A stretch of 64,000 nucleotides of DNA from an uncultured Gammaproteobacteria bacterium (lineage in GTDB: Bacteria > Patescibacteriota > Patescibacteriia > UBA9934 > CAZDDW01): assembly GCA_965231015.1 (NCBI GenBank), contig OZ246408.1:620115-684114 (forward strand), read 5' to 3'. Positions 41,589-57,301 of this stretch are shown here, piece after piece; within the stretch, counting starts at the first letter, position 1; the number at the start of each line of letters is the position of its first letter. The translations under genes were made by a program, and so were the position numbers. The notes beneath the pieces were generated by a model. That model had not been told where the DNA came from. It made no database searches and saw only the letters and a list, made by a program, of their open reading frames with translations.

Positions 41589-42095
41589 TTATTGTTCATC
41601 GGCTTGAATTGCCTGGACCACGCTTGAATCTGGCCGTAAATTTTCTATAAACAGAATGTGATCTCGGTTGATTTCCATGGTCCCTTCCGGGCCATGCATT
41701 TCCGTTCCCAAACGAACCAAACTGGTTTGACTACCCTGTCCTGACGCGGCTTGTTCTCCGGACGCTTCTTGAACCTGCAAGTAATACACTTCGGACATAT
41801 TAATAAATTGATCCTTGCGATTTTCCTCAAGCCGGCCAAAATAAACCTGACCATTAGTCAGAAAAACAGCTTTGTAATCACTGCTCATGCCCTTAGTATC
41901 CGTGTTGGCTGGCGCCTGGCTTTCCAGATCTAAAACCGTATCAATCACAGAATCACTAGAACGAGTAAACCAATAAACAAGGCCTGCCAGAACAGCTACT
42001 GCTAAAACTATAGCCACAACAATAACCAGCTTCGATCCCTTTTCTTGCTCTCCGGGTCGATTATATTGTGGTCGATTTTCTTTTTTAAAAAACAT
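41589..42095 (-). CDS. Membrane-anchored hypothetical protein (168 aa)
   Basis: TM helix LVIVVAIVLAVAVLAGLVYWF and a soluble domain with no recognised family. The start is 3 nt after the giant gene's stop. Confidence 0.5.
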   Translation of the reverse strand: MFFKKENRPQYNRPGEQEKGSKLVIVVAIVLAVAVLAGLVYWFTRSSDSVIDTVLDLESQAPANTDTKGMSSDYKAVFLTNGQVYFGRLEENRKDQFINMSEVYYLQVQEASGEQAASGQGSQTSLVRLGTEMHGPEGTMEINRDHILFIENLRPDSSVVQAIQADEQ

Positions 42096-42097
42096 AA

Positions 42098-45000
42098 TTA
42101 TTCTTCAATTAATGTATCAGACTCCTCAACCGGAGCTTCTTCAGGCTGGGCTGGCTCCTCTTCCACCACAGTTTCTTCCTGATCGGGATCAACATGTTGA
42201 GTCCCTACATCCTCTTCGACCTCTTCTTCGGTCATAGGCTCGTCATCTTCTACTTCTTCAACTACCTCCTCCTCTTCTTCTTCTCCTTCGGCTATCTCCT
42301 CATCAATTACTGGTTCTTCTTCAACCACCTCTTCCTCTTCTTCTACTGGTTCCTCTTCCTCCGGCTCTTCATCTATCTGTTCGTCCGGATCAACCATGCC
42401 TTCAACCGGATCATTTATATGACACTGGCCGTCCCAATAATAGTTTGTCAGCTGTTTGCACTCGTCCAGGGTATCACAGGCGTTCAAATTATCAACCCCA
42501 CACTCACCTTGATCAATAACCAGCTCAATTTCTTCAGTGGTTCCGTCTGAAATGAACAGCTTGGCATTATTTGAACCAAAAGCGTGCCAACTGAATTCAA
42601 CGCTCTCGCCATACATCTTATCTATCTCAATGTTAAATCCGGTTAAAGTTACATCTTTGATAATGTAGTCAATGTCCTCATGTAAATAGTTCATGAGAGT
42701 AGCAGTAACAATTGGTTGATATTGATACTCTTCCTCAAATTCAACCTGAACATTGGTCTCGTATTTCAGGATGCGAGCCAGACCAACCGTATCACCGTTA
42801 AAGGTAGTGTGTTTCTTTACCACCAAATTATCAACCTCGCCACTCATAACGAGAGTCGAACCACTTCCCTGTTCAACAGACTCAGTTTCTTGAATATCAT
42901 TCATACTATTTTGTATTGTCTCAATCACTCCCTGTTGATCCTGAATTGATTTCATCACAAGCGGAATAAAACTCTTATAATCCACCATCTTATACCCGTC
43001 CGAACGAGTGGTTACGGCAATTGGATAAATATCTTCAACCTGTTGAGCAATTACCCCGTGGTAGAATGTTTCATCATCGTCTGTAAAAGCTGATCTGTAT
43101 CGGAAATCCACAATCTCAACGGCCATTAAATCTTCAATGGAAAGTTCAGTAGCGGTGATATCCCGCTTCAAGCGCTCGTCTGACGGAGCTGTGGTATCAA
43201 TTGTATTTTGTCCAATGTAAAGAGTAGCTGAGCCTGTACCGTGGGTTTCGTCATCAATTAAATTATCCCCACTATCAACACCGATTGTCACACCAGAAGC
43301 TACCACTAATCCGCCGTTAGTTGGATCAGTGTCGCCAATACCAACGATTCCAGAACTAGATAAACGCATTACTTCTGAACCACTGGTTGAGAAGCCTAAA
43401 GTATCGGCCGAAATTCGGTACATTCCAGTGTTAGAGTCGTCGTTGAACCGGTATGATGGAGAACCAGCTGTTCCGTTTGCGTTAGCAAACGAACTGGCTC
43501 TAACTTGTCCAACAACCTGGAATTTAGTTGAAGGTGAGTCCGTACCAATTCCAACCCTCTCATTAGTAGTATCAATGTTCAAAATTGAAGTACCACCATC
43601 TGCATCTAAGAATTGGAAGCCGTTGGTTGAGTCAGTGCTATTTTGGAAAGTTAATAGATCATTAGTGGTATCGAAGGTTACTGCAGTTTCATCACCATCA
43701 GCCCCAATGTGTAAGGTGGCTGGGCCAAGATATAAATCCTGCCAACGAACTGTGCTTGAACCAAGGTCAAAGGTGTCATCTGCTGATGGAAGAAGGTCGT
43801 CACTTAATATAAAGGTTGTGGTATCGTGTCTTAAATATTCTGTTGTGGCATTGTTGTAATACAAGTACTCATCCAGGGTGATGTTACCATCAGCCTCAAT
43901 ATCATCGGCAACTAAAAGGTCGCTAGTCCCATCGATGTTGCTAGCCACACCACCTCCAACATCAAGCAGAGCCGCTGGACTGTCATCCCCAATTCCCACA
44001 TCTTCTAAAAAGTAGCTTTCCCCGGCTGAAACATAGAGGGCAAATCCACTACTTTGTGTATTTAGTTCCAATAAGTTTGCCGTGGCCGAAGAATTGGTGT
44101 CGCGGAAGCTGGCAAAAGCAGAAGCGGTCGCCGCTGTGCCTCGACGAGCATCAAATACGGAACCGGTACCATTATTGGTCAGGCTTATCATGTTAATGTT
44201 TGAATCTTGGTCAGCACTTAAAACACCCCCTGCGCCATTTTGATCAATCTCAATTGCGTTTCCGGTACCGTCATTTTGAATTTTCAAGACATCCTGATCT
44301 GAACCATCGTCTTCAGTAAATGATACTAGTGGTCCGTCAGCATCAACAGCCGCACGGCGTGAATACACATTCAAACCAATTCCCGGTGCATCGTTTCGAA
44401 CAAACAAAGCCCCGGATGAACTGGTGGCAAACCCAACATCACCAATTTGATCTATCAATAGCGCATTACCTGTACCATCATTGGTCAGATACATTACGTT
44501 TTGATCTGATGCACCATCCTCATAGAGCTCAAACAAGGCATCATCCGTGGTAGCTGCGTCTTCATTTCTGTATAAATAAAGTGCCCCGGCTCCGCCACCG
44601 GCCGTAACTCTTAAACTGGCGGCGTTATTGGTGCTAGCATCACCGATATGAGTAATCGACACAGCATAATTACTGGTGTCAGTTCCACGTACAGCCAACA
44701 TCTCAGAAGGACTATTGGTACCAATTCCCAAATATTTGTTTGTGTCGTCCCAGAAAAGGTTGGCATTATCTTCATCCAAATCCCCGGAAGCATCAGCAAA
44801 CATAACTGAACCGGTAGTAAAGCTAGAATCAAGAGAGCCGGACAAAGTTCCGTAAATTGTGCCATCGACTTCAAGGTCGTCGGCTACCAATAAGTCATCT
44901 GTTCCGTCGATGAAGTTAACAACTCCGCCACCGACATCTAACATGGCCGAAGGTGATGGATCTCCAATCCCAATATACCCCGTATTATCTGTGATCCTTA

Positions 45001-48000
45001 ACCTTTCCGTAGGTACCCCGACCCCATTATCTGTTGCAAAGCTGTGACGGGTGGTGGCATAGAAAGAGAAGTAACCATCTCCAAAGTCAGCGACACCATT
45101 ACTATCAGCTAAAATTTTAGTATTGTGAGCAGCATTTCCGATTTCAATATAATTTCCAACATTATCATACTGAATCGAACTAACGCTTGATCCTCCATCA
45201 TTAAAGTAGATCCAATCTGTTACTCGGATATCACCAGAGACATCAAGTTCAACCCCTGGTGTATTCGTCCCAATACCTAACCGATTATTGCCATCATCCC
45301 AGAATAAGTTGGTGTTATCTTGACTTAATAACCCGGAAGAACCGATAAACGGCATGGAGCCGGTAGTCATATCGGCAATGGATAACGTCTCACCGGTGTT
45401 TAATAACAGATCATCGCCCGGGTTGGTTGGTGATAAATCAGTTCCGGTCTTGGACCAATACGATGACCCTGCACCCAATGAGGCGGTATAAGTTCCAAGA
45501 GCGTTCAAAGCATGAACAATAGAGGTCGAGGTCTCACCGCCGGCACCAATTGTTGAACCAATAGATCCATCATCGGCAAAAATTTCCCCGGCATCATTTA
45601 ATAAATCGTCTCCAAGAGCAGAACCGGTCTGAGTAAAGTAAAGGCTTGGCTCTTGATTATCCCGGAAATGGATCAATCCTCCGCCACCAGATGAATCAGC
45701 GTTCAAAGTGATTAAAGCTCCGCCATTATTTACAGAATCAACTTCAAAATCAACTTCTGAATTACCATTTCCTGCCGTGGCGTGCACATAAAAACGAGCA
45801 TCACCGTTAGTTGACGGATTGTTGCTGATATTAAATTGAGCTATGGAGTCACCATTGGTATTCGTGTTTTGCAGATACACTTGGAAATCAGTGTCTCCGT
45901 TAGTGGAGTTAGAGGTTACCCCGCGATAAATACCTTGCACCTCATTTCCATCACCATTATCCTGAACTAAAAATTGAGCATACCGATTACCCGACATTAA
46001 CATGTCGTCTCCTGTGTGCATAGCCACTACTTGTGTATCAATTCCAATATCATCCGGGTCAATAAAGTTGAACAAACCAACCAGTCCGGTATTCCCTCCC
46101 AAACTTCCTTCGTTGGAATATGGATCAATGATTAAACCACCGGTTAAGGTTGTAAAGTCCACCCCGTCCCCTAGAACCGAATATCCTCCACCGGAATAAC
46201 TATTGTTCATGTAGGCGAGTCCGGATCCAAAATCAATGGCCGGCGGATTGTTGGTGACATCGTTTTGATTAATGGTCAAGGCGGCGTTATTGCTTGTATC
46301 CGGAACTGTAATTTCTACTGCCCCACTGTCCGCAGTGATTGATCGGCCGGCTCCGGCGCCGCCAGTGTCATATGACGCATCCAGAGTTCCGCCGCCGGCA
46401 CCGCCAAAATTCACCACGTAATTTCCCAAACTGTTCAGAGCATGCACAATAGACGTTGAGGTTTCACCACCTCCTCCTATGACTGAACCAAGCGTACCGG
46501 TTGAGCTAAAAATTTCCCCAGCACTATTCAACAAATCGTCTCCCAATGCCGAGTTATACTGCGTAAAATTCAGAGACTCGTTGTCATCCTCAAACTCAAT
46601 CCATGACCTTTGGTTTGGATCCAAGTCAGTGGTGGCCGATATAGTAATGTAGGCGTTTCCAACATATCCCACCCCTTCTTTGTCAGCCTCAATCCAGGTT
46701 TGAGCATCTCCACCGTCGTCGCTATTACGTGAACGTACATGGCTTACAGCATCACTAGAGCCACCGCCATCTGCAATTTCAGAATAAAATTGTGCCTCCA
46801 CATCGTTATCTGAACCAGCATTTTCTAAAGCGGCAATGGTGGCACTTCTGGTTGGCGTACCCGTAAAGAAGTTTTGATTAGAAGCATAAATGGCTGAACC
46901 TTGGGTTTCTCGACCGCTTGTGACCGCGCCGGTAAAATTATAGATTCCGGCTATCCCCATGTCACCGGCTGCAAAATAAGATTCATTGCCATAGGGATCA
47001 TAAATCAAACCACCGGTTGTGGTTCCCAAATCTGGTCCATCACTCATCATGAAAAAATTTGTGGTCAAATCAGCCTCAAGCACCTGCGGTCCGGTTCCGG
47101 AAAACTCGATCGAAGCTCCGCTGTCGGTGTTATTGGTGAGCTGTAAAACTGAAGATTCAACCGTGGTATCATTTTGAACGATTTCCAATCCAACATTACC
47201 AGAACCATCCGGTACAATGATTTGTACTTCATCAGAATCTGCCGTAATAATTCTTCCAGCCCCAGACCCACCGAAGTCATAAGCCATATCCAAAGTTCCA
47301 CCGGCTCCGGCACCAATGCCGGCGGCATATGTTCCGACCGCATTAATAGCGTGAATTAGCGAAAGTGAAGACTCGCTGAAACTTGATCCGATCGTACCGC
47401 TCGAAGAATAAATCTCACCAGGAGCGTTTAGTAAGTCTCCGCCCAGGGCAACACTATCTTGCGTCAAATACAAATTATTTTCTCTTTCATCAACAAAATA
47501 TACATCACCGTCCGGCGACAACAACTGAATTGTTGAAGTACCTCCGGCTGAAGCACTTAAAGTGATAGTTGAATCGTCGGCTATACTGTTATTTGCCTGA
47601 AGTAAAATAGTGGATTCACCGGACGTTCCGGTTGTTTTGCTTGCTCCGACTAAAAATTCTGCATCTCCGGTGTTCGTGGCACTAACCACGTTAAAAGTCA
47701 TGTCGCTGTCACCGGTTGCGGCTGATGTGGTGCGAGCATCAAAATCAATGGACACATCACCGGTTACATCGGTCTCGTTTAAAATAATTCTTGAGTAACG
47801 CGTGATAGTACCGCCGAAATCGTCATCACTATTATTCAAAACGATTTGTTGAGTAGGTACCCCGGCTGTAGCGGCACCAATAAAATTCATAATTCCGGAA
47901 AATCCCTCTGAACCACCAAGCGATGGGTCATTGCCGTACGGATCAATGAATAATCCTGAAGTTAGATCACTAAACTGGGCTCCGTTACCGACAATGCTCC

Positions 48001-51000
48001 AACCACTGGAAAGGTCGTTGGTAATAGCCGCGTAACCGGATCCGAAATCAATTCCACCCGGATAATTGGTCGTATCGTTTTGAGTGATTGATAAAGCGGC
48101 GGTGTTTGAGTTGTCAGGGACTGTAATTTGAACAGCCCCGCTGTCGGCTGTAATTAGTCGACCAGCTCCGGCACCGCCGAAATCATAGGCTTGATCAAGC
48201 GTTCCACCGGCTCCGGCTCCCAGACCGGCTGCATAAGTACCAACCGCGTTTAAAGCATGGACGAGTGAATCAGAGGTTTCACCAGAAACCGATCCGATCG
48301 TTCCGGTGGCTTCAAAAATTTCACCAGCGGCGTTTAATAAATCATCACCAAAGAAAGCACTGTCTTGGGTAAAAGCAAGGTCATCCCGCGTATCCGTAAA
48401 GCTGATAAAACCATCTCCGGTACCATTCAAAACCCGAGCCTGAATTGCTGTGTAAGCATTTCCGTTAGCGGCAACGTTATCAATATATGAACCAAGACTG
48501 GTGTAGGCATGGTGACCTAAATCTTCGTTTATAGATTTAATCTCTACAACTGCATCGTTATCTCCGGTTTCAGCTACCTCAGCGACTAATTGAGCCCGAA
48601 CGTCTTGTCCTCCTTCAGCATCAGTTTCCCAAAGGTATAAATACACAGAACGAGTTGGACTGTCGTTTGGAAAATCATTCATGGCTTGCATGAAAGACAA
48701 GGAACGATCTTGACTCGCCTCATCTGCTCCAATGTAATTTCCGAAACCGACGGCACCCTGATTCAAACCAGTATAAACTGGGTTGTTACCATATGGATCT
48801 ATCATGAATCCAGCATTTATATCTGCAACCGTAACATCGTCAGCTATAGCGATCCAATTACTGGTCAGGTCAGTTAAAAGCGAGTGTCCTCCAACACCGG
48901 TAAACTCAATCGCCGCCCCATCGCCGGCATTACTGATCGTTAAAGCTGACGGGTCATTTGTAGCATCATTTTGAGTAATGGTAAGCACGGAATGATTGGA
49001 ATTGTTCGGGGTAATGAATTGGATCGTTCCCGAGTCAGCCGTAATGGTTCTACCGTTACCGGCACCACCAAAGTCGTAAGCCTGATCCAGTGTACCACCG
49101 CCGCCGGCACCAATTCCGGCCGCATAAGACCCAACCGCATTCAGGGCATGTACTAAAGAATCGGATGTTTCACCAACACCTATTGAAGACCCAATGGTTC
49201 CAGTACTACTGAAGACCTCTCCCGGAGCATTTAACAAGTCATCACCCAAGCTAGAGCCGTATTGAGTGAAGGTCAGCTGGTCATTTTCGTCACGGAATGA
49301 AATCCATGAATCCATGGTGCCAGTATCATCAACCGCGGCTTCTAACTCAATATATGCATCTCCACTATTTCCGGCTCCACGTTTGTGAGCCTCAATGTGT
49401 ACGACCGAATCTCCACCATTATCTTCATGACTTGATTCTAAAACAGCTTCGGCGTCATCTGTGCCACCACCCGGTTCAATCTGAGCCAATGATCTGACTT
49501 CGACATTTCCATCTTCATCTGTTTCAAAAGCACCCACAACAGCCCAACGAGTTGGCGAACCGGTCAGATGGTTTGCGTTACCGGAATAATTAACTGATCC
49601 GGCTAAATTATTTCCGGCTGTTGCCGCTCCAACATAGTTATAATAACCGACCACCCCGTAACCAACCGCTGAAAAGGCCGGACTTACTCCGTAAGGATCA
49701 GCCAATAAACCGCCTGTTGACGTGGTGCCCATGTCGTTGGAGTCTCCCATAACATAATAATTGGAGGTAATATCTTCAAAAGTGGTTGAATAAACACTGG
49801 ATCCGGAAAAATGCAGACCAGATGCTCCGGAAGCATTGTTGGTAATCTGAACAGCCGGGTCAGTAGCCGCGGTATTGTTGTGCGTGGCTAAAAGACTGCT
49901 TCCTTGACTGTAGTTCCTAATCTTTAGTGCCGCGTCAGTAAAATCTTTTCCGTGTGTCACCTCTAAGGCACGCTCAGCCATAGGATTTCCAAAAGTCACA
50001 CTGCCTTCTAAAACATCCGCACTGACCGATTCAGCCGGAAATCCAGGATTACCTCCAATCACGGTTTGAACCGTTGCCACTGTTCCACTAGGATCAAGAG
50101 AAACGAGCTGGTACATACCATCATGAGCCGCTGAGCCAGACACCAAAAATGTTGTGGAAGCTGATTCTGTAATATTTAAACTGCGAAGATTAGTTGAAAA
50201 AGTGATTGTGTTTCCTGATAAAGTTACTGCCTCTGTCAATAATTCATAAGAACTGGTCAAACCAAGAGTTCTTTCATTTCCCATAATTGTCACACCGAAA
50301 GCAAATTCACCAACTGCTGGTTCAGAATTCACAACCAAGGTTGCAGGAAAATCAGTAAAGGTCGTCGTTCCAAGTCCAGAATTCAATTTTAGTAAAGAGT
50401 CACTAAAAGTAGCTGTTTCTGCTTGTCCGGCATCACTAATGTACACCGGCCCGCTGTCAGCTATAATGCTTCGCCCGACACCGGCACCTCCGGTATCATA
50501 TGACTGATCAAGCGTGCCGCCACCGCCACCTAACGAATCTACATATTCCTTATCAACCAAAGATCGGTTTGTGTAGTTTGATGAATAATCAGCTGCATAA
50601 ACAGCTCCTTCAAAACCAACTACATCACTGGTAATCGATATGTTTTCCGGAGAAACATCAAGACTGGTACTTGTAAGATTATTATCATCACTTCTTTCAA
50701 AAGACAGGTCATTTGTTCGCATCCAAGTATTCATGATTTCACCCGTAGCAGAATTCTCAGCCGTGTAGAAAACTCCTCCTGAATCCTGATTCAGTTCGCT
50801 AAAATAAATACCCGTGTTCATTGATTGAATCCATTCATCCTCCCCAATCTCTACCATCATTCCCGTATTCTCAATAATAAAATAATTTCCGTTCAAATCA
50901 AACGTACGATCTTCAGAAAGAGAACCGTCGGAATTGAAGATATTAATACTTGCATTATCTACATATTCCTTATCAACCAAAGATCGGTTTGTGTAGTCAG

Positions 51001-52798
51001 CACTATAATCCGCGGCATAAGTCAATCCTTCGAAATTTGCGGCATCACTCGTGATGTAAATCAAATCATCTCGATAATATAAGTCGTGCTGGTTAGCCCC
51101 CTCTAAAGTCAGTCCGGCAAAATCTGTTCCACTAACACCAAACCGTACTTCTCTATTATCCCCAGAATCTATTATTTTAAAATTATCTCCGTTAAATTCC
51201 GTGTAGGGTTCACCAACAAATTCACGAACCACGAATGAAAATCCTTGATGGTTAAGATATGTATTTTGATCCAAATCACCACCAAGATCGATTTCACCGG
51301 ATGTTAAAGTAAGGCCATTTCCAGCTGATGTAATTGCCCCATCAACCGTGCCATAAATTGTTCCGTCAACCTCCAAGTCACCGGCCACCAAAACGTCGTC
51401 AACTCCATCAATATAATCGGCCACTCCACCACCAACATCTAACAATGAAGACGTGGTAGAAGTTGAAATTCCAACCTGATCTTCAGAGCCATCTGTGAAC
51501 AATAAATACTCATCCAAACCACTTTCAATTCTAAAGTCAGTTTGAGTTGAACCTTCATTAATAGTAATTTCTTCATCAGCATACTGAACATCAATCATGT
51601 GACGACCACCGGTCCTAAGTTGCCACCGGTCCGGTGTGAAGTACATGAAAGTGTGTGAATCTTCATTGTGACGGATATAGCCTTCCACCCCAACTTCCCC
51701 ATCTACGTCCAAGGTGTAATCCGGGGCATTATTACCAATTCCTAATCTATCATTGGTATCATCCCAGAAAAAATTAGCGTTGTCTTCAATTAGATCTCCT
51801 GAAGCATTAGCAAAAGTTACTGAACCCTGTGTGTATGAGCCAAGATTTCCCAAAGCAAAACTTTCCCAACCGATGTTAGTACTAGCTCCTGAGGTCTTGA
51901 GATACATGGTTCCGTTGGTGGTGTCGACGGTCAGGTCTCCAATGTCAGCTGTAATAGATCCTTCTGGAGTGGTATCAGCTCGGAAAATTTGCAGATCACC
52001 GGCTGAGTTCTCAATGGTGACAATAGCTGTGTCATTAGCCGAGTTTGAATCCACGTGCAAGGCAGTGGCTGGTGTATCATTACCAATTCCTAGCAAACCT
52101 TCAGAATCCAAACTGAAAATTTCCACGTCATTGTGGTTCAAAACGGAAAGTTGATAATTGTCGGCATCAGTCACCGTGTTAAGAACCTTGAGTTCACGCT
52201 CATCCGCCGCCGCCCCGGTCCAACCTGAACCTTGAAGTACCAACATTGGTGAGTTGTACCCTTGAGTGACCGCAGTAGCAGTACCAAGAGCTTCACCTAC
52301 GAGCTCGTCTGAACCAGAGTCAGCAAACGGCCCCACCCTTCCGGCGTTCATGGAAAACGGATGAGCCGCTAGCAGTACTCGAGGCGAGGCTTCGTTGTCC
52401 GCTTCAATTTTTACCCCCAGGTACAAAGTTTCTTGAAAATCTAAATAGTCAGGGAAGCTTACACAGTTTCCCAGCTGAACATCAAAGTAACCTTGAGTGT
52501 CTGGAGTGACTTCAGCACAAGCTCCTACACCCTGGTCATAGGTTTCACTCCAGAGCAATGGTCCGGTTTCACTAGCCACGTCAGTTGGAGCTCCGTTGGT
52601 TGCATGGTTGTAGATTGAAAACTGAATGGTGGTTGAAGCTACTACTGGGTTTCCCAAAATGTCTCGGAGGCGAGACTGGTAATTGACCACGTCCGGGGCG
52701 GCCTGAGCCTGAGACCCAGAAAGACCAAAATTAACGCATGTCAACAACAATGCGACTAAAACACCGGTTCTTTTTAGCCAAATTCTCCCGTCAAGCAT
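42098..52798 (-). CDS. Giant secreted repeat protein (3566 aa) with tail-fibre-like repeats and a C-terminal intramolecular chaperone (Peptidase S74) domain
   Basis: Signal peptide MLDGRIWLKRTGVLVALLLTCVNFGLSGSQAQA. It has at least 6 ~230-aa repeats (LLNAPGEIFSSTGTIGS...HALNAVGTYAAGIGAGAGGTLDQAYDFGGAGAGR) and LGIGTNTP...LDV beta-helix-like motifs. An S74 domain (SDERLKRDITATELSIEDL...YHGVIAQQVEDIYPIAV...VDYKSFIPL) lies near 42850-43190, followed by a ~330-aa tail ending in a poly-Glu stretch. Confidence 0.8.
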   Translation of the reverse strand: MLDGRIWLKRTGVLVALLLTCVNFGLSGSQAQAAPDVVNYQSRLRDILGNPVVASTTIQFSIYNHATNGAPTDVASETGPLLWSETYDQGVGACAEVTPDTQGYFDVQLGNCVSFPDYLDFQETLYLGVKIEADNEASPRVLLAAHPFSMNAGRVGPFADSGSDELVGEALGTATAVTQGYNSPMLVLQGSGWTGAAADERELKVLNTVTDADNYQLSVLNHNDVEIFSLDSEGLLGIGNDTPATALHVDSNSANDTAIVTIENSAGDLQIFRADTTPEGSITADIGDLTVDTTNGTMYLKTSGASTNIGWESFALGNLGSYTQGSVTFANASGDLIEDNANFFWDDTNDRLGIGNNAPDYTLDVDGEVGVEGYIRHNEDSHTFMYFTPDRWQLRTGGRHMIDVQYADEEITINEGSTQTDFRIESGLDEYLLFTDGSEDQVGISTSTTSSLLDVGGGVADYIDGVDDVLVAGDLEVDGTIYGTVDGAITSAGNGLTLTSGEIDLGGDLDQNTYLNHQGFSFVVREFVGEPYTEFNGDNFKIIDSGDNREVRFGVSGTDFAGLTLEGANQHDLYYRDDLIYITSDAANFEGLTYAADYSADYTNRSLVDKEYVDNASINIFNSDGSLSEDRTFDLNGNYFIIENTGMMVEIGEDEWIQSMNTGIYFSELNQDSGGVFYTAENSATGEIMNTWMRTNDLSFERSDDNNLTSTSLDVSPENISITSDVVGFEGAVYAADYSSNYTNRSLVDKEYVDSLGGGGGTLDQSYDTGGAGVGRSIIADSGPVYISDAGQAETATFSDSLLKLNSGLGTTTFTDFPATLVVNSEPAVGEFAFGVTIMGNERTLGLTSSYELLTEAVTLSGNTITFSTNLRSLNITESASTTFLVSGSAAHDGMYQLVSLDPSGTVATVQTVIGGNPGFPAESVSADVLEGSVTFGNPMAERALEVTHGKDFTDAALKIRNYSQGSSLLATHNNTAATDPAVQITNNASGASGLHFSGSSVYSTTFEDITSNYYVMGDSNDMGTTSTGGLLADPYGVSPAFSAVGYGVVGYYNYVGAATAGNNLAGSVNYSGNANHLTGSPTRWAVVGAFETDEDGNVEVRSLAQIEPGGGTDDAEAVLESSHEDNGGDSVVHIEAHKRGAGNSGDAYIELEAAVDDTGTMDSWISFRDENDQLTFTQYGSSLGDDLLNAPGEVFSSTGTIGSSIGVGETSDSLVHALNAVGSYAAGIGAGGGGTLDQAYDFGGAGNGRTITADSGTIQFITPNNSNHSVLTITQNDATNDPSALTISNAGDGAAIEFTGVGGHSLLTDLTSNWIAIADDVTVADINAGFMIDPYGNNPVYTGLNQGAVGFGNYIGADEASQDRSLSFMQAMNDFPNDSPTRSVYLYLWETDAEGGQDVRAQLVAEVAETGDNDAVVEIKSINEDLGHHAYTSLGSYIDNVAANGNAYTAIQARVLNGTGDGFISFTDTRDDLAFTQDSAFFGDDLLNAAGEIFEATGTIGSVSGETSDSLVHALNAVGTYAAGLGAGAGGTLDQAYDFGGAGAGRLITADSGAVQITVPDNSNTAALSITQNDTTNYPGGIDFGSGYAAITNDLSSGWSIVGNGAQFSDLTSGLFIDPYGNDPSLGGSEGFSGIMNFIGAATAGVPTQQIVLNNSDDDFGGTITRYSRIILNETDVTGDVSIDFDARTTSAATGDSDMTFNVVSATNTGDAEFLVGASKTTGTSGESTILLQANNSIADDSTITLSASAGGTSTIQLLSPDGDVYFVDERENNLYLTQDSVALGGDLLNAPGEIYSSSGTIGSSFSESSLSLIHAINAVGTYAAGIGAGAGGTLDMAYDFGGSGAGRIITADSDEVQIIVPDGSGNVGLEIVQNDTTVESSVLQLTNNTDSGASIEFSGTGPQVLEADLTTNFFMMSDGPDLGTTTGGLIYDPYGNESYFAAGDMGIAGIYNFTGAVTSGRETQGSAIYASNQNFFTGTPTRSATIAALENAGSDNDVEAQFYSEIADGGGSSDAVSHVRSRNSDDGGDAQTWIEADKEGVGYVGNAYITISATTDLDPNQRSWIEFEDDNESLNFTQYNSALGDDLLNSAGEIFSSTGTLGSVIGGGGETSTSIVHALNSLGNYVVNFGGAGGGTLDASYDTGGAGAGRSITADSGAVEITVPDTSNNAALTINQNDVTNNPPAIDFGSGLAYMNNSYSGGGYSVLGDGVDFTTLTGGLIIDPYSNEGSLGGNTGLVGLFNFIDPDDIGIDTQVVAMHTGDDMLMSGNRYAQFLVQDNGDGNEVQGIYRGVTSNSTNGDTDFQVYLQNTNTNGDSIAQFNISNNPSTNGDARFYVHATAGNGNSEVDFEVDSVNNGGALITLNADSSGGGGLIHFRDNQEPSLYFTQTGSALGDDLLNDAGEIFADDGSIGSTIGAGGETSTSIVHALNALGTYTASLGAGSSYWSKTGTDLSPTNPGDDLLLNTGETLSIADMTTGSMPFIGSSGLLSQDNTNLFWDDGNNRLGIGTNTPGVELDVSGDIRVTDWIYFNDGGSSVSSIQYDNVGNYIEIGNAAHNTKILADSNGVADFGDGYFSFYATTRHSFATDNGVGVPTERLRITDNTGYIGIGDPSPSAMLDVGGGVVNFIDGTDDLLVADDLEVDGTIYGTLSGSLDSSFTTGSVMFADASGDLDEDNANLFWDDTNKYLGIGTNSPSEMLAVRGTDTSNYAVSITHIGDASTNNAASLRVTAGGGAGALYLYRNEDAATTDDALFELYEDGASDQNVMYLTNDGTGNALLIDQIGDVGFATSSSGALFVRNDAPGIGLNVYSRRAAVDADGPLVSFTEDDGSDQDVLKIQNDGTGNAIEIDQNGAGGVLSADQDSNINMISLTNNGTGSVFDARRGTAATASAFASFRDTNSSATANLLELNTQSSGFALYVSAGESYFLEDVGIGDDSPAALLDVGGGVASNIDGTSDLLVADDIEADGNITLDEYLYYNNATTEYLRHDTTTFILSDDLLPSADDTFDLGSSTVRWQDLYLGPATLHIGADGDETAVTFDTTNDLLTFQNSTDSTNGFQFLDADGGTSILNIDTTNERVGIGTDSPSTKFQVVGQVRASSFANANGTAGSPSYRFNDDSNTGMYRISADTLGFSTSGSEVMRLSSSGIVGIGDTDPTNGGLVVASGVTIGVDSGDNLIDDETHGTGSATLYIGQNTIDTTAPSDERLKRDITATELSIEDLMAVEIVDFRYRSAFTDDDETFYHGVIAQQVEDIYPIAVTTRSDGYKMVDYKSFIPLVMKSIQDQQGVIETIQNSMNDIQETESVEQGSGSTLVMSGEVDNLVVKKHTTFNGDTVGLARILKYETNVQVEFEEEYQYQPIVTATLMNYLHEDIDYIIKDVTLTGFNIEIDKMYGESVEFSWHAFGSNNAKLFISDGTTEEIELVIDQGECGVDNLNACDTLDECKQLTNYYWDGQCHINDPVEGMVDPDEQIDEEPEEEEPVEEEEEVVEEEPVIDEEIAEGEEEEEEVVEEVEDDEPMTEEEVEEDVGTQHVDPDQEETVVEEEPAQPEEAPVEESDTLIEE

Positions 52799-52840
52799 GG
52801 GGTCTTTTTATTTCTTATATTTTAGCAAATTATAAAGTTA

Positions 52841-52864
52841 ATATCCACAGGAAACTGTGGATAT
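52841..52864. repeat. Perfect 10-bp-arm inverted repeat ATATCCACAG-GAAA-CTGTGGATAT upstream of the giant gene
   Basis: It lies between the 52896 stop and the 52798 start. The arms resemble a TTATCCACA-like box, suggesting an operator or an attenuator hairpin. Confidence 0.35.
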
Positions 52865-53898: not shown

Positions 53899-56502
53899 TT
53901 AATAAATGATAAGTCTTAGCGACTGTAGTGGATCAGCCTTGCCAAAAAACTGAATCGACTCTTCAGTTCTGCGAATTTCAATAAACTGTAGGCTGGATTC
54001 CGCTTCCACGTACTGGGTGACCGGTGCCACACTTTCGTAAACGGTTTCCGTGACCGTTTCGGTAACTGTCTCGGTTATCGGCACTTCCCGCATCACCTCC
54101 TCGGTTTCAGTGATAACTTCTGGAGTACACACTAATCCCTCACCAGCTCCATAAACTGGAACCATTAACACTTCTGGGCCAATAGCCACTCGGCCACGAG
54201 CGGTAGTTATTGGTCGGAAATGGTAAACCGTACCCATGGCTAATCCGTCAATGACCACGGCATGATAAGTGCTGTCGTCATTGGTTTCTGGGGTTGAAAG
54301 CGGATAACCGTAATTTGGTTCAGCACCAAGCGACGTGTGCGACACGTCATCGTACAGCACCCGACCGGTACCAGCCATATTACTCAACCAGCTGACCAAT
54401 ACGGAATCACTGTCAATTTGAGTAGCTTCCACGGTGGTGATATTAATTGATGGCACCTGGGTCTCAATTCCACCTCCCCCACCTTCACAAACCGCACGCG
54501 TACCCTCGGCTTCATACTCACAACTCGAGTCACAACCGTCTCCATCATTTGTATTCCCATCATCACAATCTTCATTTAGCTCAACAAGATAGTTTCCACA
54601 AATCTCTTCAGAAAGACAGTTTGAACTACAACCGTCCCCACTTACCGTGTTTCCATCATCACATACCTCGTTTCCTTCGATTACTCCATTACCACACAAC
54701 TGTCCTACACCACCACCGACTGTCAATGAATAAACGTCCCGTTCCATTAAATTACCACCGGCATCAGCGGCATATATTATGACTGGAACCGCTTCTCCGG
54801 CAGTAAAATCAATTTCCGGGTCAATTGAAAATTGATAAATGTTTGGTGCGGAAACATTGGTGACCACTGTGGTATCACCAACATAATTACCTCCGTTAAA
54901 ATCAAGACTGCTCGCATATGTGATTCGGGTTCCGCTTACGGTCACTTGTCCGGCTCCCCCACCGTTTGTGTAATAGGTTCCGTTGACATAAATCACCACC
55001 TCATCAAGATCAACCCCAACCCCATCATCATTCAGATTAAACTCGACCGTACCATCAGCCACAATTCCGGCGTCATCAGCCGGGTTTCGCGTGTCCACGT
55101 ACGGAGCATCTGAGTCAGTGGTGGTAAAAGTATAGTTGTCAGCCACCATTACGTTGCCGGCTACATCTTCACAATTGTAAACACTCACGGAAACGGTTTC
55201 GTTTTGGGCAAAATCACTGGCCGGGTTAATAGTGATCTGGTAGCCATAGTCAACCGCGGTCACGGTCAAATCACCATGACCCTCCTGGTACGTGGTCAAA
55301 GCAAAACTTGGGCTGGAAACATCAATATCACAAGTATTTGAAACCACCCCGGTTCCAGAAATGTTTCCCGGATAATTTTTCAAATCTTGAACCGTGATAA
55401 CAAGATTGGTATCAACCGCGTTGCCTGAACTTCCCCGAACAGGTGACTCAGATGTCACTTCCGGGGGAACATCATCTTCTTCAGTGGTAAAGGTCCAGGT
55501 TTTAGTATCCATGGTGTTTGGACCATTGGCGTCACCCAGCTGATCTTGGCTAGAACTAGCTAAATCTTGGTATCCGCTAACTTCTACCGTATACGAGGTA
55601 TCGTATTCCCAATTACGATTATCTCCGGCAATACCGCTTGGCGAAGCCGGATCAACTGTTACATCACATTCATTGGTGCCAAAAATTCCGGAACAAGCAT
55701 AACTGGCGTCCCCGGTATGATCTGCCGCGCCTCCCCCGTCATCAAAAGTAATACTGCCCGGTGGAACAGACATATCCACACCGGTACCGGCTCCGGAGTC
55801 ATCCCCTTCACCATTCAAACTATCCCACAACTCAAAGTAATAATCCTCATCAATGTCTACATCAACCGAACCTGTAGACGGGCTCTCATCCTGTGCATAC
55901 GGTTTGATCGTGTCTGCCCAAACGTGAAAATCAAAATCTTCTTCCGAATCCATGTATTCCAGGCCATCACGAGCTATATTAGTGTCGGTCGGTACTCCGT
56001 TCGTGTAATCAATATCAAGAGCAGTCGCATTGTAACCGTAAGCCGCGGCAGTTGGCTCTAACATGGTCCAGGTAACTCGACCGTATTGGCGAGTACCACT
56101 ATAATATGTTCCTGGATTATTGTACGCACTAAATTCCAAATGACCAGCCACGTTATCAATCGATTCACCAACCCAGTTTTGGTAAGCCGTCAGAGTAGTC
56201 AAACCCGAAGCACTAACTTTGTCCGGATCGTAGTCAAGTAAAAAATCAGCTCCGTTGGAGGGGTTGGCCGCATCAATAGCAACGTCGATCCGGGTATTGA
56301 AAGACTGTCCAACGTAATAATAATTGAGATCAGCATCAAGTCCGGTTCCTCCATCTCCGGTGTTATCCGAGCCTGTCTGAGTCAAAGTGTACATCTGAAA
56401 CCAGTTGGTACCGCTTGGGTCAGCTGCGGAAACCGGGGCAGCAAAAAGAAAAACAAAAATCAAGAAATAAAGAAATAAAGAAATCTTAAAATGTTCTCGC
56501 AT
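53899..56502 (-). CDS. Secreted 867-aa protein with Myxococcus-type cysteine-rich repeats (CxxxxxxxxCDDGNxxxGDGC)
   Basis: Signal peptide MREHFKISLFLYFLIFVFLFAAPVSAA. Two repeats, CGNGVIEGNEVCDDGNTVSGDGCSSNC and CGNYLVELNEDCDDGNTNDGDGCDSSC, match the TIGR02232-like motif. A long Gly/Thr/Asp-rich beta region and a C-terminal TETVTETVTE stretch follow. Confidence 0.65.
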   Translation of the reverse strand: MREHFKISLFLYFLIFVFLFAAPVSAADPSGTNWFQMYTLTQTGSDNTGDGGTGLDADLNYYYVGQSFNTRIDVAIDAANPSNGADFLLDYDPDKVSASGLTTLTAYQNWVGESIDNVAGHLEFSAYNNPGTYYSGTRQYGRVTWTMLEPTAAAYGYNATALDIDYTNGVPTDTNIARDGLEYMDSEEDFDFHVWADTIKPYAQDESPSTGSVDVDIDEDYYFELWDSLNGEGDDSGAGTGVDMSVPPGSITFDDGGGAADHTGDASYACSGIFGTNECDVTVDPASPSGIAGDNRNWEYDTSYTVEVSGYQDLASSSQDQLGDANGPNTMDTKTWTFTTEEDDVPPEVTSESPVRGSSGNAVDTNLVITVQDLKNYPGNISGTGVVSNTCDIDVSSPSFALTTYQEGHGDLTVTAVDYGYQITINPASDFAQNETVSVSVYNCEDVAGNVMVADNYTFTTTDSDAPYVDTRNPADDAGIVADGTVEFNLNDDGVGVDLDEVVIYVNGTYYTNGGGAGQVTVSGTRITYASSLDFNGGNYVGDTTVVTNVSAPNIYQFSIDPEIDFTAGEAVPVIIYAADAGGNLMERDVYSLTVGGGVGQLCGNGVIEGNEVCDDGNTVSGDGCSSNCLSEEICGNYLVELNEDCDDGNTNDGDGCDSSCEYEAEGTRAVCEGGGGGIETQVPSINITTVEATQIDSDSVLVSWLSNMAGTGRVLYDDVSHTSLGAEPNYGYPLSTPETNDDSTYHAVVIDGLAMGTVYHFRPITTARGRVAIGPEVLMVPVYGAGEGLVCTPEVITETEEVMREVPITETVTETVTETVYESVAPVTQYVEAESSLQFIEIRRTEESIQFFGKADPLQSLRLIIY

Positions 56503-56503
56503 A

Positions 56504-57301
56504 TTAATTGTCCCCTTCCAAATTAAAATTCTTTAAAACTGTAGTCAAGTCTAACGCGTTTACTTTGGTGTCTTGGTTTAAATTAGACCTATACCCGTTC
56601 CCGGTAGCATCACTTTCAGCAAAATCAGTTAAGCACTGCGTAATATCAAGGGCGTTTATTTTATCATCTCCTAAAGTTGCCGGAGCGTCTCCGGCCAAAT
56701 TAATATCCCCAGCAATAAGTTCGATTGCACCTTTGGGAGCAGAATTATCAGTTTGAGAAAAATTTAGTGTTGTGGTTCCGTCTATCAACGGTACATCATC
56801 TAAGACTAAAGTTAAATGTTGATCCGTTTTTATCCCAATATCATACGTCCCGGCAGCCACTGCCAATTCAATCGGAATCGAATACGTACCATCAACTTCA
56901 GATGTAGCCAAGACCGATTGTGTGTACAAAATCACATCATCGGAATTATCCGAAGTTCTGACCGTAAGAATAAAAGTCACATCATCGTTAGTTTCGGCAA
57001 CACCATAACGTAATTCCGGTACCGCCCATTGCACGACGGCAAAAACTGTTCCCACAGCATCATCCCACCAGGTTCCATGGTCATAGATGTAATTGGCACT
57101 GGTCGAGGTTCCAACCCCCGGGTGACCGACCTCAGCCTTGAACTGATAGTTAGTTGAACTACCGTCAAACTCAACCGGACCACCACGCTCCTGATTCATA
57201 TCGTAGTTTGCACTATCCCCGGCCAAAGCTAAAGCCGGTAGCATCATAAGTGCCCCAGTTATCAAAAGAATTCTCCGATTGATTATGGCTCGGATCTTCA
57301 T
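56504..57301 (-). CDS. Secreted protein with dockerin-like Ca-binding repeats (265 aa)
   Basis: Signal peptide MKIRAIINRRILLITGALMMLPALALA. The C-terminus has two ~22-aa segments, GDDKINALDITQCL and NLNQDTKVNALDLTTVL, resembling the type-I dockerin DxNxDxxVNxxD loops. Confidence 0.5.
   Translation of the reverse strand: MKIRAIINRRILLITGALMMLPALALAGDSANYDMNQERGGPVEFDGSSTNYQFKAEVGHPGVGTSTSANYIYDHGTWWDDAVGTVFAVVQWAVPELRYGVAETNDDVTFILTVRTSDNSDDVILYTQSVLATSEVDGTYSIPIELAVAAGTYDIGIKTDQHLTLVLDDVPLIDGTTTLNFSQTDNSAPKGAIELIAGDINLAGDAPATLGDDKINALDITQCLTDFAESDATGNGYRSNLNQDTKVNALDLTTVLKNFNLEGDN

What the first reader, a model, noticed from the sequence alone, without database searches (positions are those of the whole stretch)
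42098..52798. 3566-aa giant surface protein carrying an internal phage-tail-fibre-type intramolecular chaperone (Peptidase S74) domain followed by a 330-aa acidic tail
The segment SDERLKRDITATELSIEDLMAVEIVDFRYRS...FYHGVIAQQVEDIYPIAVTTRSDGYKMVDYKSFIPLVMKSIQ fits the S74/CIMCD consensus (SDxRLK...GxIAQEV...VDY). That module trimerises and then autocleaves in phage tail spikes and endosialidases. Upstream there are LGIGTNTP...LDVSG beta-helix-like motifs typical of tail fibres and at least 6 near-identical ~230-aa repeats. Unusually, the S74 module is not C-terminal. It is followed by a further domain and a poly-Glu tail (EEEEEVVEEEPV...). This suggests a cleaved-off acidic fragment or a novel architecture for a putative episymbiont adhesin.
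Basis: partly seen in the sequence, partly recalled or inferred. Interest (0 to 1): 0.7.

Follow-up and report, generated by a model that had tools for sequence, protein, structure and literature searches.

The report
Giant phage-fibre-like bacterial surface protein
A 3,566-residue secreted protein from a small-genome bacterium (probably Patescibacteria/CPR) is built like a phage tail fibre: a self-cleaving trimerisation module sits near its end, followed by a lectin-like domain and an acidic tail, and because this end-piece recurs in more than a hundred related protein clusters it is a real, widespread and apparently undescribed variant of a known kind of adhesin fibre.

Summary
The ORF (42098..52798, minus strand, 3566 aa) is real and has a Sec-type signal peptide. 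Peptidase_S74 (PF13884) is confirmed at aa 3206-3262 (35.6 bits, cut-off 22). Its Ser3206/Lys3211 dyad (SDERLK) is kept in 82 of 83 aligned relatives, and the AF2 model matches the MyRF and endosialidase chaperone folds.

The "330-aa acidic tail" is composite:
- the rest of the chaperone, including a long helix to about aa 3305
- a disordered linker
- an H-type-lectin-like beta-sandwich (aa 3334-3428)
- a 4-Cys element
- a 104-aa tail that is 54% Asp+Glu

The repeats are five units of about 300 aa at 40-44% identity to unit 2 (up to 66% locally), not six or more near-identical 230-aa units.

The S74-then-lectin-like cassette is not a one-off. 115 of the 150 best 50%-identity cluster representatives carry both domains in that order, in proteins up to 5397 aa. 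Named relatives are CPR. The cassette was absent from 50,697 phage records. The context is chromosomal.

Best reading: a trimeric, MAT-like host-binding fibre whose C-terminal 361 aa act as an extended assembly cassette that is cut off. No paper describing this cassette was found. Verdict: new variant of a known kind, moderately interesting.

The parts
52819..52847 (-). Promoter-like site (TGGATA-17-TAAAAT with an upstream TG) in the 97-nt gap before the start codon
   Evidence: This is a consensus match only; the number of sites in the region does not exceed the shuffles.
52700..52798 (-). Sec-type signal peptide, aa 1-33 (MLDGRIWLKRTGVLVALLLTCVNFGLSGSQAQA|AP)
   Evidence: Read directly from the translation: basic n-region, hydrophobic core, AQA-A site. 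No signal-peptide predictor was available.
52319..52699 (-). Conserved beta-rich N-terminal domain, about aa 34-160. It is shared with other S74 fibre proteins and is the likely cell-proximal base.
   Evidence: 28% identity over 117 aa to the N-terminus of P0006, a 537-aa protein that ends in S74 (E 7e-7). The first 100-400 aa match 11-20 of the 149 other family representatives. No Pfam family was found.
50522..52318 (-). Proximal fibre region, aa 161-759. It has two [LV]GIG[TND]xxP motifs (aa 236, 352) and a short internal duplication (580-615 / 720-755). aa 231-511 are duplicated at aa 2473-2705.
45479..50521 (-). Five tandem repeats, aa 760-2440: U1 49100-50521 (474 aa), U2 48209-49099, U3 47303-48208, U4 46394-47302, U5 45479-46393. 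Each begins with GGTLDxxYDxGGxGxGRxIxADS and ends with LGDDLLNxxGE...S.S..HA.N..G.Y.
   Evidence: Self-BLAST. Alignment A1: 40-44% identity to U2, 55 invariant columns. No BLAST match in the 149 other family representatives. The 28-aa start motif is found in fibre proteins of other phyla. The AF2 model has low confidence (pLDDT 46, mostly beta with a terminal helix).
43184..45478 (-). Distal fibre region, aa 2441-3205, with five [LV]GIG[TND]xxP motifs (aa 2507, 2690, 2934, 3082, 3152). This would be the mature C-terminal tip after cleavage.
   Evidence: aa 3101-3200 match about 50 of the 149 family representatives.
42884..43183 (-). Peptidase S74 / intramolecular chaperone auto-processing (ICA) domain, aa 3206-3305. 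Predicted scissile Ser3206 and general base Lys3211 (SDERLK). Ends in a 32-residue helix (aa 3274-3305).
42800..42883 (-). Flexible linker, aa 3306-3333
   Evidence: pLDDT below 50 for model residues 120-146
42515..42799 (-). H-type-lectin-like beta-sandwich, aa 3334-3428. Conserved motifs: DTVG, YxYQPIVT, GF, FxWHAFG, SDG.
42413..42514 (-). Four-cysteine element, aa 3429-3462 (Cys 3433, 3441, 3447, 3459)
   Evidence: Shared with the closest homologue P0011.
42101..42412 (-). Acidic low-complexity tail, aa 3463-3566 (54% Asp+Glu, no Lys or Arg, net charge -56)
   Evidence: Comparable acidic or Pro/Ser/Thr-rich tails (median 89 aa), with no hydrophobic TM-like segment in any of 125 checked, follow the lectin-like domain in family members.
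41589..42095 (-). 168-aa single-pass membrane protein, starting 2 nt after the giant gene's stop codon. Possibly co-transcribed; its membership of the system is uncertain.
   Evidence: A terminator-like hairpin lies at 41579-41559 (-) just downstream. The gene is not conserved next to homologues.

Best explanation
The gene encodes a Sec-exported, homotrimeric cell-surface fibre of a small-genome bacterium, most probably a member of Patescibacteria/CPR. Its design is that of a phage tail fibre and of the Bdellovibrio 'mosaic adhesive trimer' (MAT) fibres.

Proposed layout and mechanism:
- A conserved N-terminal beta-rich domain sits at the producer's surface.
- A long shaft follows. Its middle, the five 300-aa repeats, is lineage-specific and is the candidate host-binding or spacing part.
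- The C-terminal S74 ICA domain brings three chains into register and nucleates folding of the upstream fibre. It then cuts the chain at Ser3206, with Lys3211 as the base.
- This sheds a 361-aa, 41-kDa, strongly acidic fragment made of the ICA domain, an H-type-lectin-like trimerising beta-sandwich, a disulfide element and a disordered poly-Glu tail.
- That whole fragment is a conserved, extended assembly cassette. The lectin-like domain adds a second trimerisation or retention element, and the acidic tail keeps the fragment soluble.

Shown here: the ORF, the domains, the dyad, the fold matches, the recurrence of the cassette, and the chromosomal context.

Inferred: trimer formation, cleavage and release, surface display, and the host-adhesion role.
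For: S74 domain:
- PF13884 scores above its gathering score.
- Ser and Lys are each conserved in 82/83 aligned homologues, and S[DS]xxxK is present in 109 of 115 cassette-bearing representatives. This argues that catalysis is under selection.
- The AF2 model of the module (pLDDT 75; both domains 80-94) matches MyRF ICA, endoNF CIMCD and T5 pb1.

Post-S74 domain:
- It matches H-type lectins, which established knowledge describes as obligate trimers, and the trimeric C-terminal domains of R-pyocin fibres and tailspikes.

Cassette as a conserved assembly module:
- S74, then the lectin-like domain, then a low-complexity tail, occurs in 115 of the 150 best representatives, always in that order, in proteins of median length 1329 aa and up to 5397 aa.
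- The lectin-like domain is more conserved (51% mean column identity) than the whole module (38%).
- The fibre bodies are not shared between family members. That is the pattern expected of an assembly module, not of a variable receptor-binding tip.

Cellular, not viral:
- The protein has a signal peptide.
- Its neighbours are housekeeping genes (UvrA/B/C, histidine kinases, tRNA-Gln) with no PHROG hits.
- Homologues are also chromosomal.

Precedent:
- Bdellovibrio MAT fibres have a signal peptide, a conserved N-domain of about 130 aa, a trimeric shaft and a terminal S74 with SDxxxK. Bd3182 was shown experimentally to self-cleave (PMC10769870).

Taxonomy:
- Named relatives are from Uhrbacteria, Saccharibacteria, Roizmanbacteria, Parcubacteria and a Patescibacteria MAG.
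Against: - No trimer model, cleavage assay or proteomic evidence is available.
- It is odd to discard a well-folded, highly conserved lectin-like domain. Its nearest structural relatives include genuine receptor-binding tips (R2 pyocin fibre, tailspike C-termini), so it could be the functional tip instead.
- The taxonomy of the window itself was not shown directly. It is inferred only from relatives and from contig size.
- The N-domain was not compared with Bdellovibrio MAT sequences, because none were available.
- The structure of the repeat unit could not be predicted with confidence (pLDDT 46).
- H_lectin stays below Pfam's gathering score, and a sequence profile of the domain found no H-type lectin in the PDB.
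Confidence: 0.6

Rival explanations
1. Retained-tip model. The S74 domain serves mainly as a trimerisation clamp, either uncleaved or cleaved but still bound. The H-type-lectin-like trimer stays on the fibre as the distal glycan-binding tip that contacts the host cell, with the acidic tail as a flexible appendage.
For: The domain's best structural matches are carbohydrate-binding trimers and receptor-binding ends of R-pyocin fibres and tailspikes. It sits at the distal end, where adhesin tips normally lie. It is well conserved, so it is clearly functional.
Against: The Ser/Lys dyad is kept in 82/83 and SDxxxK in 109/115. In every characterised S74 protein (endoNF, T5 pb1, Bd3182, MyRF; established knowledge and PMC10769870) the dyad cleaves and the parts separate. 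A tip that recognises diverse hosts would be expected to vary, yet this domain is the most conserved part of otherwise unrelated fibres. A disordered linker of about 28 aa separates it from the ICA domain.
Confidence: 0.2
2. Tether-and-release switch, as in MyRF. The lectin-like domain and acidic tail hold the nascent chains on the producer's own envelope. ICA cleavage then releases the trimeric fibre, or the lectin fragment itself acts as a secreted factor.
For: MyRF is a precedent for an internal ICA whose cleavage frees an N-terminal trimer from an anchored C-terminal part (7dc3 match; established knowledge). The high conservation of the cassette fits a ligand that is constant, such as a self envelope component.
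Against: None of the 125 tails examined has a hydrophobic TM-like segment. No binding partner is known. A fibre with a conserved N-terminal base domain looks designed to stay on the cell by its N-terminus.
Confidence: 0.12
3. The gene is a phage or prophage tail-fibre gene, that is, a virion protein and not a cellular one.
For: The S74 stretch hits phage tail-fibre PHROGs, 223 phage records and 219 BFVD models.
Against: All of those matches cover only the S74 part. No phage record covers 80% or more of the two-domain module, and there was no IMG/VR hit. The gene has a signal peptide. It is flanked by UvrABC, histidine kinases and a tRNA, with no PHROG hits on neighbours. Homologues sit beside DnaJ, RRF, a class-II aminoacyl-tRNA synthetase and a DNA pol III delta' subunit.
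Confidence: 0.03
4. It is a polymorphic-toxin-type giant protein, in which the autoprotease releases a C-terminal toxin.
For: The layout is superficially similar: a very long filamentous N-terminal part, then an autoprotease, then a C-terminal module.
Against: The C-terminal module is not polymorphic. It is the most conserved part of the family and has a lectin-like beta-sandwich fold, followed by a disordered tail. No toxin or immunity family was detected.
Confidence: 0.02

Closest known systems
Bdellovibrio bacteriovorus MAT (mosaic adhesive trimer) fibres, S74 subgroup, e.g. Bd3182 (Caulton et al. 2024, PMC10769870)
   Same: Both are chromosomally encoded bacterial proteins, not virion proteins. 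Both have a signal peptide, a conserved beta-rich N-terminal domain, a long fibre with short Gly/Pro loop motifs, and an S74 module with SDxxxK. Both come from an organism that must recognise other bacteria.
   Different: MATs are about 1000 aa and end in the S74 domain; the non-S74 MATs replace it with a tip domain. Here the protein is 3566 aa, and S74 is followed by a conserved lectin-like domain and an acidic tail. The producer is a probable monoderm CPR bacterium, not a diderm predator. No sequence-level link to MAT structures in the PDB was found. Homology of the N-domain was not tested.
C-terminal intramolecular chaperone domains of phage tailspikes and tail fibres (K1F endosialidase 3gw6, T5 pb1 4uw8, S16 gp37 6f45)
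   Same: The Pfam family, the Ser-Lys dyad and the fold are the same. These domains drive trimerisation of the upstream fibre and then cleave themselves off (established knowledge).
   Different: In phages the domain is the extreme C-terminus of a virion protein with no signal peptide. None of 50,697 phage records has the downstream lectin-like domain.
MyRF (myelin regulatory factor) ICA domain, 7dc3
   Different: MyRF is a eukaryotic membrane-bound transcription factor, and its extension contains a transmembrane helix. Here no hydrophobic TM-like segment follows the ICA.
H-type lectins (Helix pomatia agglutinin 2ccv, coral SLL-2 3wmp, discoidin I/II C-domains) and the C-terminal domain of R-type pyocin fibres (6cl6, 6cu2)
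   Different: Sequence identity is only about 15%, below Pfam's gathering score. Sugar-binding residues and trimer formation were not tested. The position after a self-cleaving module is not that of a classical lectin or fibre tip.
Trimeric autotransporter adhesins (YadA family)
   Same: Both are giant, repetitive, trimeric adhesin-like fibres. Proteins sharing the 28-aa junction motif of the repeats carry YadA_head repeats.
   Different: There is no YadA-type membrane anchor or any other TAA domain in this protein. Trimerisation is predicted to come from S74 instead.

Membership tests
Peptidase S74 / intramolecular chaperone auto-processing domain (PF13884) | Match to the family HMM above the curated gathering score | tested here: met
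   35.6 bits against 22, E 1.1e-8, aa 3206-3262, profile positions 1-57 of 58
Peptidase S74 / intramolecular chaperone auto-processing domain (PF13884) | Catalytic Ser and Lys five residues apart (S-D-x-x-x-K) | tested here: met
   SDERLK, Ser3206/Lys3211. Ser 82/83 and Lys 82/83 in aligned relatives. Motif present in 109 of 115 cassette-bearing representatives.
Peptidase S74 / intramolecular chaperone auto-processing domain (PF13884) | ICA fold, including the C-terminal long helix | tested here: met
Peptidase S74 / intramolecular chaperone auto-processing domain (PF13884) | Trimerisation and autoproteolytic release | not testable with these tools
   Needs a multimer prediction or a biochemical assay (wild type against S3206A)
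H-type lectin (PF09458) | Match to the family HMM above the gathering score (24 bits) | tested here: not met
   16.2 bits in the whole protein and 21.5-22.1 bits for the isolated domain. 10 of 26 relatives hit at E<=0.01, best E 6.3e-5; only the window's own score was seen, and it is below the cut-off. A profile search of the PDB found no H-type lectin.
H-type lectin (PF09458) | Six-stranded beta-sandwich fold of HPA, SLL-2 and discoidin | tested here: met
H-type lectin (PF09458) | Homotrimer with a GalNAc/Gal site at the subunit interfaces | not tested
   No multimer model, and no residue-level structural alignment was available
Bdellovibrio-type MAT fibre superfamily (PMC10769870) | Signal peptide followed by a conserved beta-rich N-terminal domain of about 130 aa | tested here: inconclusive
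   A signal peptide and a conserved N-domain exist. Homology to the Bdellovibrio N-domain could not be tested because no MAT N-terminal sequence was available.
Bdellovibrio-type MAT fibre superfamily (PMC10769870) | Trimeric beta-helix shaft with capping loops V-G-G/N-pi-x-x-P-x-x-x-L | tested here: inconclusive
   Seven [LV]-G-I-G-[TND]-x-x-P motifs are present, six of them with Leu or Phe four residues after the Pro. The motif is similar but its spacing differs by one residue. No confident structure of the shaft was obtained.
Bdellovibrio-type MAT fibre superfamily (PMC10769870) | Ends in S74 or in an alternative tip domain | tested here: not met
   S74 is followed by a further 261 aa: linker, lectin-like domain, Cys element and acidic tail. 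This is a variant architecture.
MyRF-type internal ICA proteins | ICA followed by a transmembrane anchor | tested here: not met
   No hydrophobic segment in aa 3306-3566 or in the 125 family tails
Phage tail fibre / tailspike (virion protein) | Encoded within a phage or prophage structural gene cluster | tested here: not met
   Neighbours are UvrA/B, histidine kinases and tRNA-Gln, with no PHROG hits. Homologues are chromosomal.
Trimeric autotransporter adhesin | C-terminal YadA-type beta-barrel anchor | tested here: not met
   No such Pfam hit in the 3566-aa protein

The most novel reading that the evidence does not exclude
The unit 'S74 ICA, then H-type-lectin-like domain, then disordered acidic or Pro/Thr tail' is a previously undescribed, CPR-wide maturation cassette and not just a long pro-peptide. 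On this reading the lectin-like trimer binds a conserved glycan, either on the producer's own envelope or on host cells. ICA self-cleavage then acts as a switch that uncouples this binding from the fibre. That would be a bacterial counterpart of the MyRF release mechanism, and it would govern how ultrasmall episymbionts deploy their host-recognition fibres.
Probability: 0.2. Interest if true: 0.75.

Novelty: new variant of a known kind. Interest (0 to 1): 0.52.

Why it matters
How Patescibacteria/CPR cells recognise and hold on to their hosts is largely unknown beyond type IV pili. This protein and its roughly one hundred or more related clusters suggest that these bacteria use phage-tail-fibre-like trimeric fibres, as Bdellovibrio does with its MAT proteins, but with an extra conserved end-piece.

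Three practical consequences follow:
- The cassette is a compact, highly conserved sequence handle. Its motifs (SDxRLK, DTVGQAKIL, YxYQPIVT, FNWHAFG, VSDG) could be used to pull candidate host-recognition fibres out of CPR genomes.
- The hypervariable shafts are candidates for host-specificity determinants.
- The predicted self-cleavage is easy to test in vitro.

If the lectin-like domain proves to have its own ligand, that would add a new function to the S74 auto-processing paradigm.

Tried and rejected
- **Self-BLAST of the whole protein** returned only the identity hit. Chunked BLAST was needed to see the repeats.
- **Profile word-index search with A2.** It returned almost only short S74-only proteins, so it was of little use for taxonomy.
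- **AF2 of the repeat unit.** Using the five internal copies as the alignment gave pLDDT 46, which is not usable for a fold search.
- **Repeat profile against the PDB.** Nothing significant.
- **Lectin-domain profile against PDB sequences.** Only chance-level hits. The H-lectin link therefore rests on the fold and on sub-threshold Pfam hits.
- **The search for related loci.** The single-protein scan of genome contigs found only two fragments from one Patescibacteria MAG. The viral-contig scan found nothing.
- **The afdb50 fold library was unavailable,** so there is no UniProt-based taxonomic census of the cassette.
- **Cluster look-ups gave no organism names.**
- **Conserved neighbours were sought and not found.**
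- **A weak NCBIfam hit on the upstream 265-aa ORF** to the CPR pilus tip pilin PamT (30 bits against a cut-off of 240) was followed into the preprint 10.64898/2026.03.03.709456. It was judged too weak to link the fibre to that pilus system.
- **Prophage and polymorphic-toxin readings** were considered and rejected (see the rival explanations).
- **Literature searches** for 'H-type lectin' with 'S74' or 'intramolecular chaperone' found no paper. In a looser search, none of the listed papers held 'chaperone of endosialidase' together with CPR terms.
Full report
**1. The observation**

The window holds one uninterrupted ORF on the minus strand at 42098..52798, encoding 3566 aa. The identical protein is on record in NCBI on a 1,002,985-bp contig, and part of the same locus occurs in a Logan assembly of run SRR7048224. 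The N-terminus reads as a Sec signal peptide: basic n-region, hydrophobic core, and AQA|AP. This is by inspection only.

Pfam places Peptidase_S74 (PF13884) at aa 3206-3262, with E 1.1e-8 and 35.6 bits against a gathering score of 22. PHROG families for tail fibre and virion structural proteins hit the same stretch and nothing else. So does the only PDB sequence match, phage S16 gp37 (6f45).

The domain starts with SDERLK, that is Ser3206 and Lys3211 at the canonical S-D-x-x-x-K spacing.

Two details are wrong:
- The repeats are five units, starting at aa 760, 1234, 1531, 1833 and 2136. Their period is about 300 aa; the first unit is 474 aa because of an insertion. They are 40-44% identical to unit 2. 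They are not six or more near-identical 230-aa units.
- The '330-aa acidic tail' is a string of distinct elements, described next.

**2. Anatomy of the C-terminal end**

An AF2 model was built for aa 3188-3442 using an alignment of 26 homologous modules. Mean pLDDT is 75. There are two confidently folded domains (pLDDT 80-94) joined by a disordered linker.

The second domain, aa ~3334-3428, is a beta-sandwich. Its best matches are:
- the C-terminal domains of several tailspikes (Foldseek)

Pfam's H_lectin model hits this domain at 16-22 bits, just under its 24-bit cut-off. It also hits 10 of 26 homologues at E<=0.01. A sequence profile of the domain finds no H-type lectin in the PDB. I therefore call the domain H-type-lectin-like by fold, not a proven family member.

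A 4-Cys element follows (aa 3429-3462). After it comes a 104-aa tail with 54% Asp+Glu and no basic residue. The fragment from Ser3206 to the end is 361 aa, 41 kDa, with net charge -88.

**3. The cassette is a family feature**

An exhaustive HMMER search used aa 3190-3440 against 1.84 billion cluster representatives. It found 14,244 proteins at E<=1e-3 (mostly S74 alone), 551 at E<=1e-10 and 21 at E<=1e-30.

The best 150 were re-scored with separate HMMs for the two domains:
- 139 have S74 and 126 have the lectin-like domain.
- 115 have both, always S74 first.
- The S[DS]xxxK motif is present in 109 of the 115.
- The median distance from the start of S74 to the C-terminus is 311 aa.
- The median protein length is 1329 aa; 21 are at least 2000 aa, 6 are at least 3000 aa, and the longest is 5397 aa.

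In an alignment of 83 full modules, Ser3206 and Lys3211 are each kept in 82. After the lectin-like domain nearly all members carry a low-complexity tail of median 89 aa. The tails are acidic or Pro/Ser/Thr-rich, and none of the 125 checked has a hydrophobic TM-like segment. The closest relative, P0011 (1752 aa, 55% identity over the module), also shares the 4-Cys element and the acidic tail.

The lectin-like domain is the best conserved part, at 51% mean column identity. The whole module stands at 38%.

The bodies of the proteins are not shared:
- aa 800-2400 of the window protein, the five repeats, have no BLAST match in any of the other 149 representatives.
- Only the first ~400 aa (11-20 proteins) and the region just upstream of S74 (about 50 proteins) are shared.

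Eleven representatives have the lectin-like domain without a detectable S74. So does P0002, from Candidatus Uhrbacteria.

**4. The repeats**

Each unit begins with GGTLDxxYDxGGxGxGRxIxADS and ends with a conserved, helix-predicted segment, LGDDLLNxxGE...S.S..HA.N..G.Y. No Pfam family matches, and the AF2 model is not reliable (pLDDT 46).

A profile search found 46 proteins. Most share only the 28-aa start motif, at 70-88% identity. They are fibre-like proteins of Flavobacteriales, Chitinophagales, Planctomycetes and Phycisphaerales that also carry YadA_head repeats, Phage_depo_C, collagen repeats or S74.

Nothing points to Ig or cadherin folds. The company these motifs keep is that of trimeric fibres.

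**5. Context**

The gene lies in ordinary chromosomal surroundings. UvrB, UvrA and UvrC lie on one side, with a DUF362 protein and a cytidylyltransferase-like protein between them and the fibre gene. On the other side are two PAS histidine kinases and tRNA-Gln.

Upstream, on the same strand, are three genes for secreted or membrane proteins:
- 265 aa
- 867 aa, with Big_5 and Cys-rich acidic repeats
- 333 aa

None of the neighbours hits a PHROG family.

A promoter-like site precedes the start codon. A 168-aa single-pass membrane protein starts 2 nt after the stop codon, and it is followed by the best terminator-like hairpin of the region. This is weak evidence for a two-gene transcript.

Homologues P0141 (4591 aa) and P0011 are likewise flanked by housekeeping genes, with no conserved neighbours.

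Phage comparisons:
- In 50,697 phage records, 223 match the S74 part, and none covers 80% or more of the two-domain module.
- BFVD structural hits cover about 100-130 columns, that is S74 only.
- An IMG/VR pattern scan found nothing.

Named relatives come from Candidatus Uhrbacteria, Saccharibacteria, Roizmanbacteria, Parcubacteria and a 'Patescibacteria group' MAG. Together with the 1.0-Mb contig, this makes a CPR origin likely. It was not shown directly.

**6. Mechanism**

Established knowledge of S74/ICA domains comes from K1F endosialidase, T5 pb1 and MyRF. PMC10769870 adds Bdellovibrio Bd3182, where S782 self-cleavage was demonstrated. Three C-terminal domains associate, template the upstream threefold fibre, and then the Ser-Lys dyad cuts the chain.

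Applied here, the most likely sequence of events is:
- Sec export.
- C-terminal nucleation of a homotrimer.
- Cleavage before Ser3206.
- Loss of a 41-kDa acidic fragment.

This would leave a mature fibre subunit of about 329 kDa. Its conserved N-terminal domain would sit on the producer's surface, and its lineage-specific shaft and new C-terminal tip would face the partner cell.

The cassette is conserved while the fibre bodies vary. This suggests that the lectin-like domain and the tail belong to the assembly machinery, not to the variable recognition surface.

The main rival is that the lectin-like trimer is the working tip and stays attached. Its structural relatives are real receptor-binding domains, so this cannot be dismissed. 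A third reading is a MyRF-like tether-and-release switch. The domains and their conservation are shown. Trimerisation, cleavage, release and adhesion are inferred.

**7. Comparison and novelty**

The closest functional analogue is the Bdellovibrio MAT family: signal peptide, conserved N-domain, trimeric shaft with Gly/Pro capping loops, and a terminal S74 or an alternative tip. This protein works like a MAT fibre. Membership is untested for the N-domain, and the defining terminal architecture differs.

It is a bona fide S74-domain protein. It is H-type-lectin-like only by fold. It is not a virion protein, not a TAA, and not MyRF-like in having a membrane anchor.

I found no paper combining S74/ICA with H-type lectin. 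No listed paper held 'chaperone of endosialidase' together with CPR terms. The library does not cover all journals. Databases already annotate small relatives as 'tail fiber domain-containing protein'.

I therefore rate it a new variant of a known kind, of moderate interest. It offers a concrete, testable handle on CPR host recognition. The individual modules and the general principle are already known.

Noticed in passing
window 45479-50521 (-), start of each repeat (aa 760, 1234, 1531, 1833, 2136): A 28-aa motif, GGTLDQAYDFGGAGxGRTITADxGAV, is 70-88% identical in fibre-like proteins of distant phyla (Flavobacteriales, Chitinophagales, Planctomycetes, Phycisphaerales). Those proteins otherwise carry YadA_head, Phage_depo_C, collagen or S74 modules. 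It appears to be an unnamed, very conserved junction element of bacterial fibres.
   Followed up: partly
window 56504-57301 (-), 265-aa ORF: A secreted protein whose N-terminal ~80 aa give a weak NCBIfam hit to the CPR-type pilus tip pilin PamT (30 bits against a cut-off of 240). By eye its C-terminus looks like a dockerin-type repeat pair (..NALDITQCL.. / ..VNALDLTTVLKNF..), but no Pfam family was detected. The Pam pilus is described in preprint 10.64898/2026.03.03.709456.
   Followed up: partly
window 53899-56502 (-), 867-aa ORF: A secreted protein with Big_5, two Cys-rich acidic repeats (DUF4215 / TIGR02232 myxo_disulf_rpt) and an FN3-like Pur_ac_phosph_N domain. It lies directly upstream of a 333-aa membrane protein and the giant gene, on the same strand. 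This may form a surface-protein gene cluster.
   Followed up: no
window 41589-42095 (-), 168-aa ORF: A single-pass membrane protein that starts 2 nt after the giant gene's stop codon and is followed by the strongest terminator-like hairpin of the region (41579-41559). It has a weak FliL-like hit (19 bits against a cut-off of 179). It is not found next to homologues of the giant gene.
   Followed up: partly
P0002 (Candidatus Uhrbacteria, 620 aa) and 11 of the 150 representatives (e.g. P0069, 5238 aa): The lectin-like domain plus acidic tail also occurs without a detectable S74 domain. In P0002 it follows a weak Phage_depo_C match and a 'GADLAEYFPS...' segment. The cassette's second half may therefore combine with other upstream modules.
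   Followed up: partly
Tails of P0030, P0050 and P0057 (family members): Instead of the 4-Cys element seen here, some members carry tandem 'GCTxPxAxNYDPxAxxDDGSC' mini-modules after the lectin-like domain. Their nature was not examined.
   Followed up: no
window 43329-43859 (+), 42194-42550 (+), 51753-52154 (+): ORFs of 118-176 aa lie antisense within the giant gene. They are most likely spurious products of the long ORF's composition. They were not examined further.
   Followed up: no
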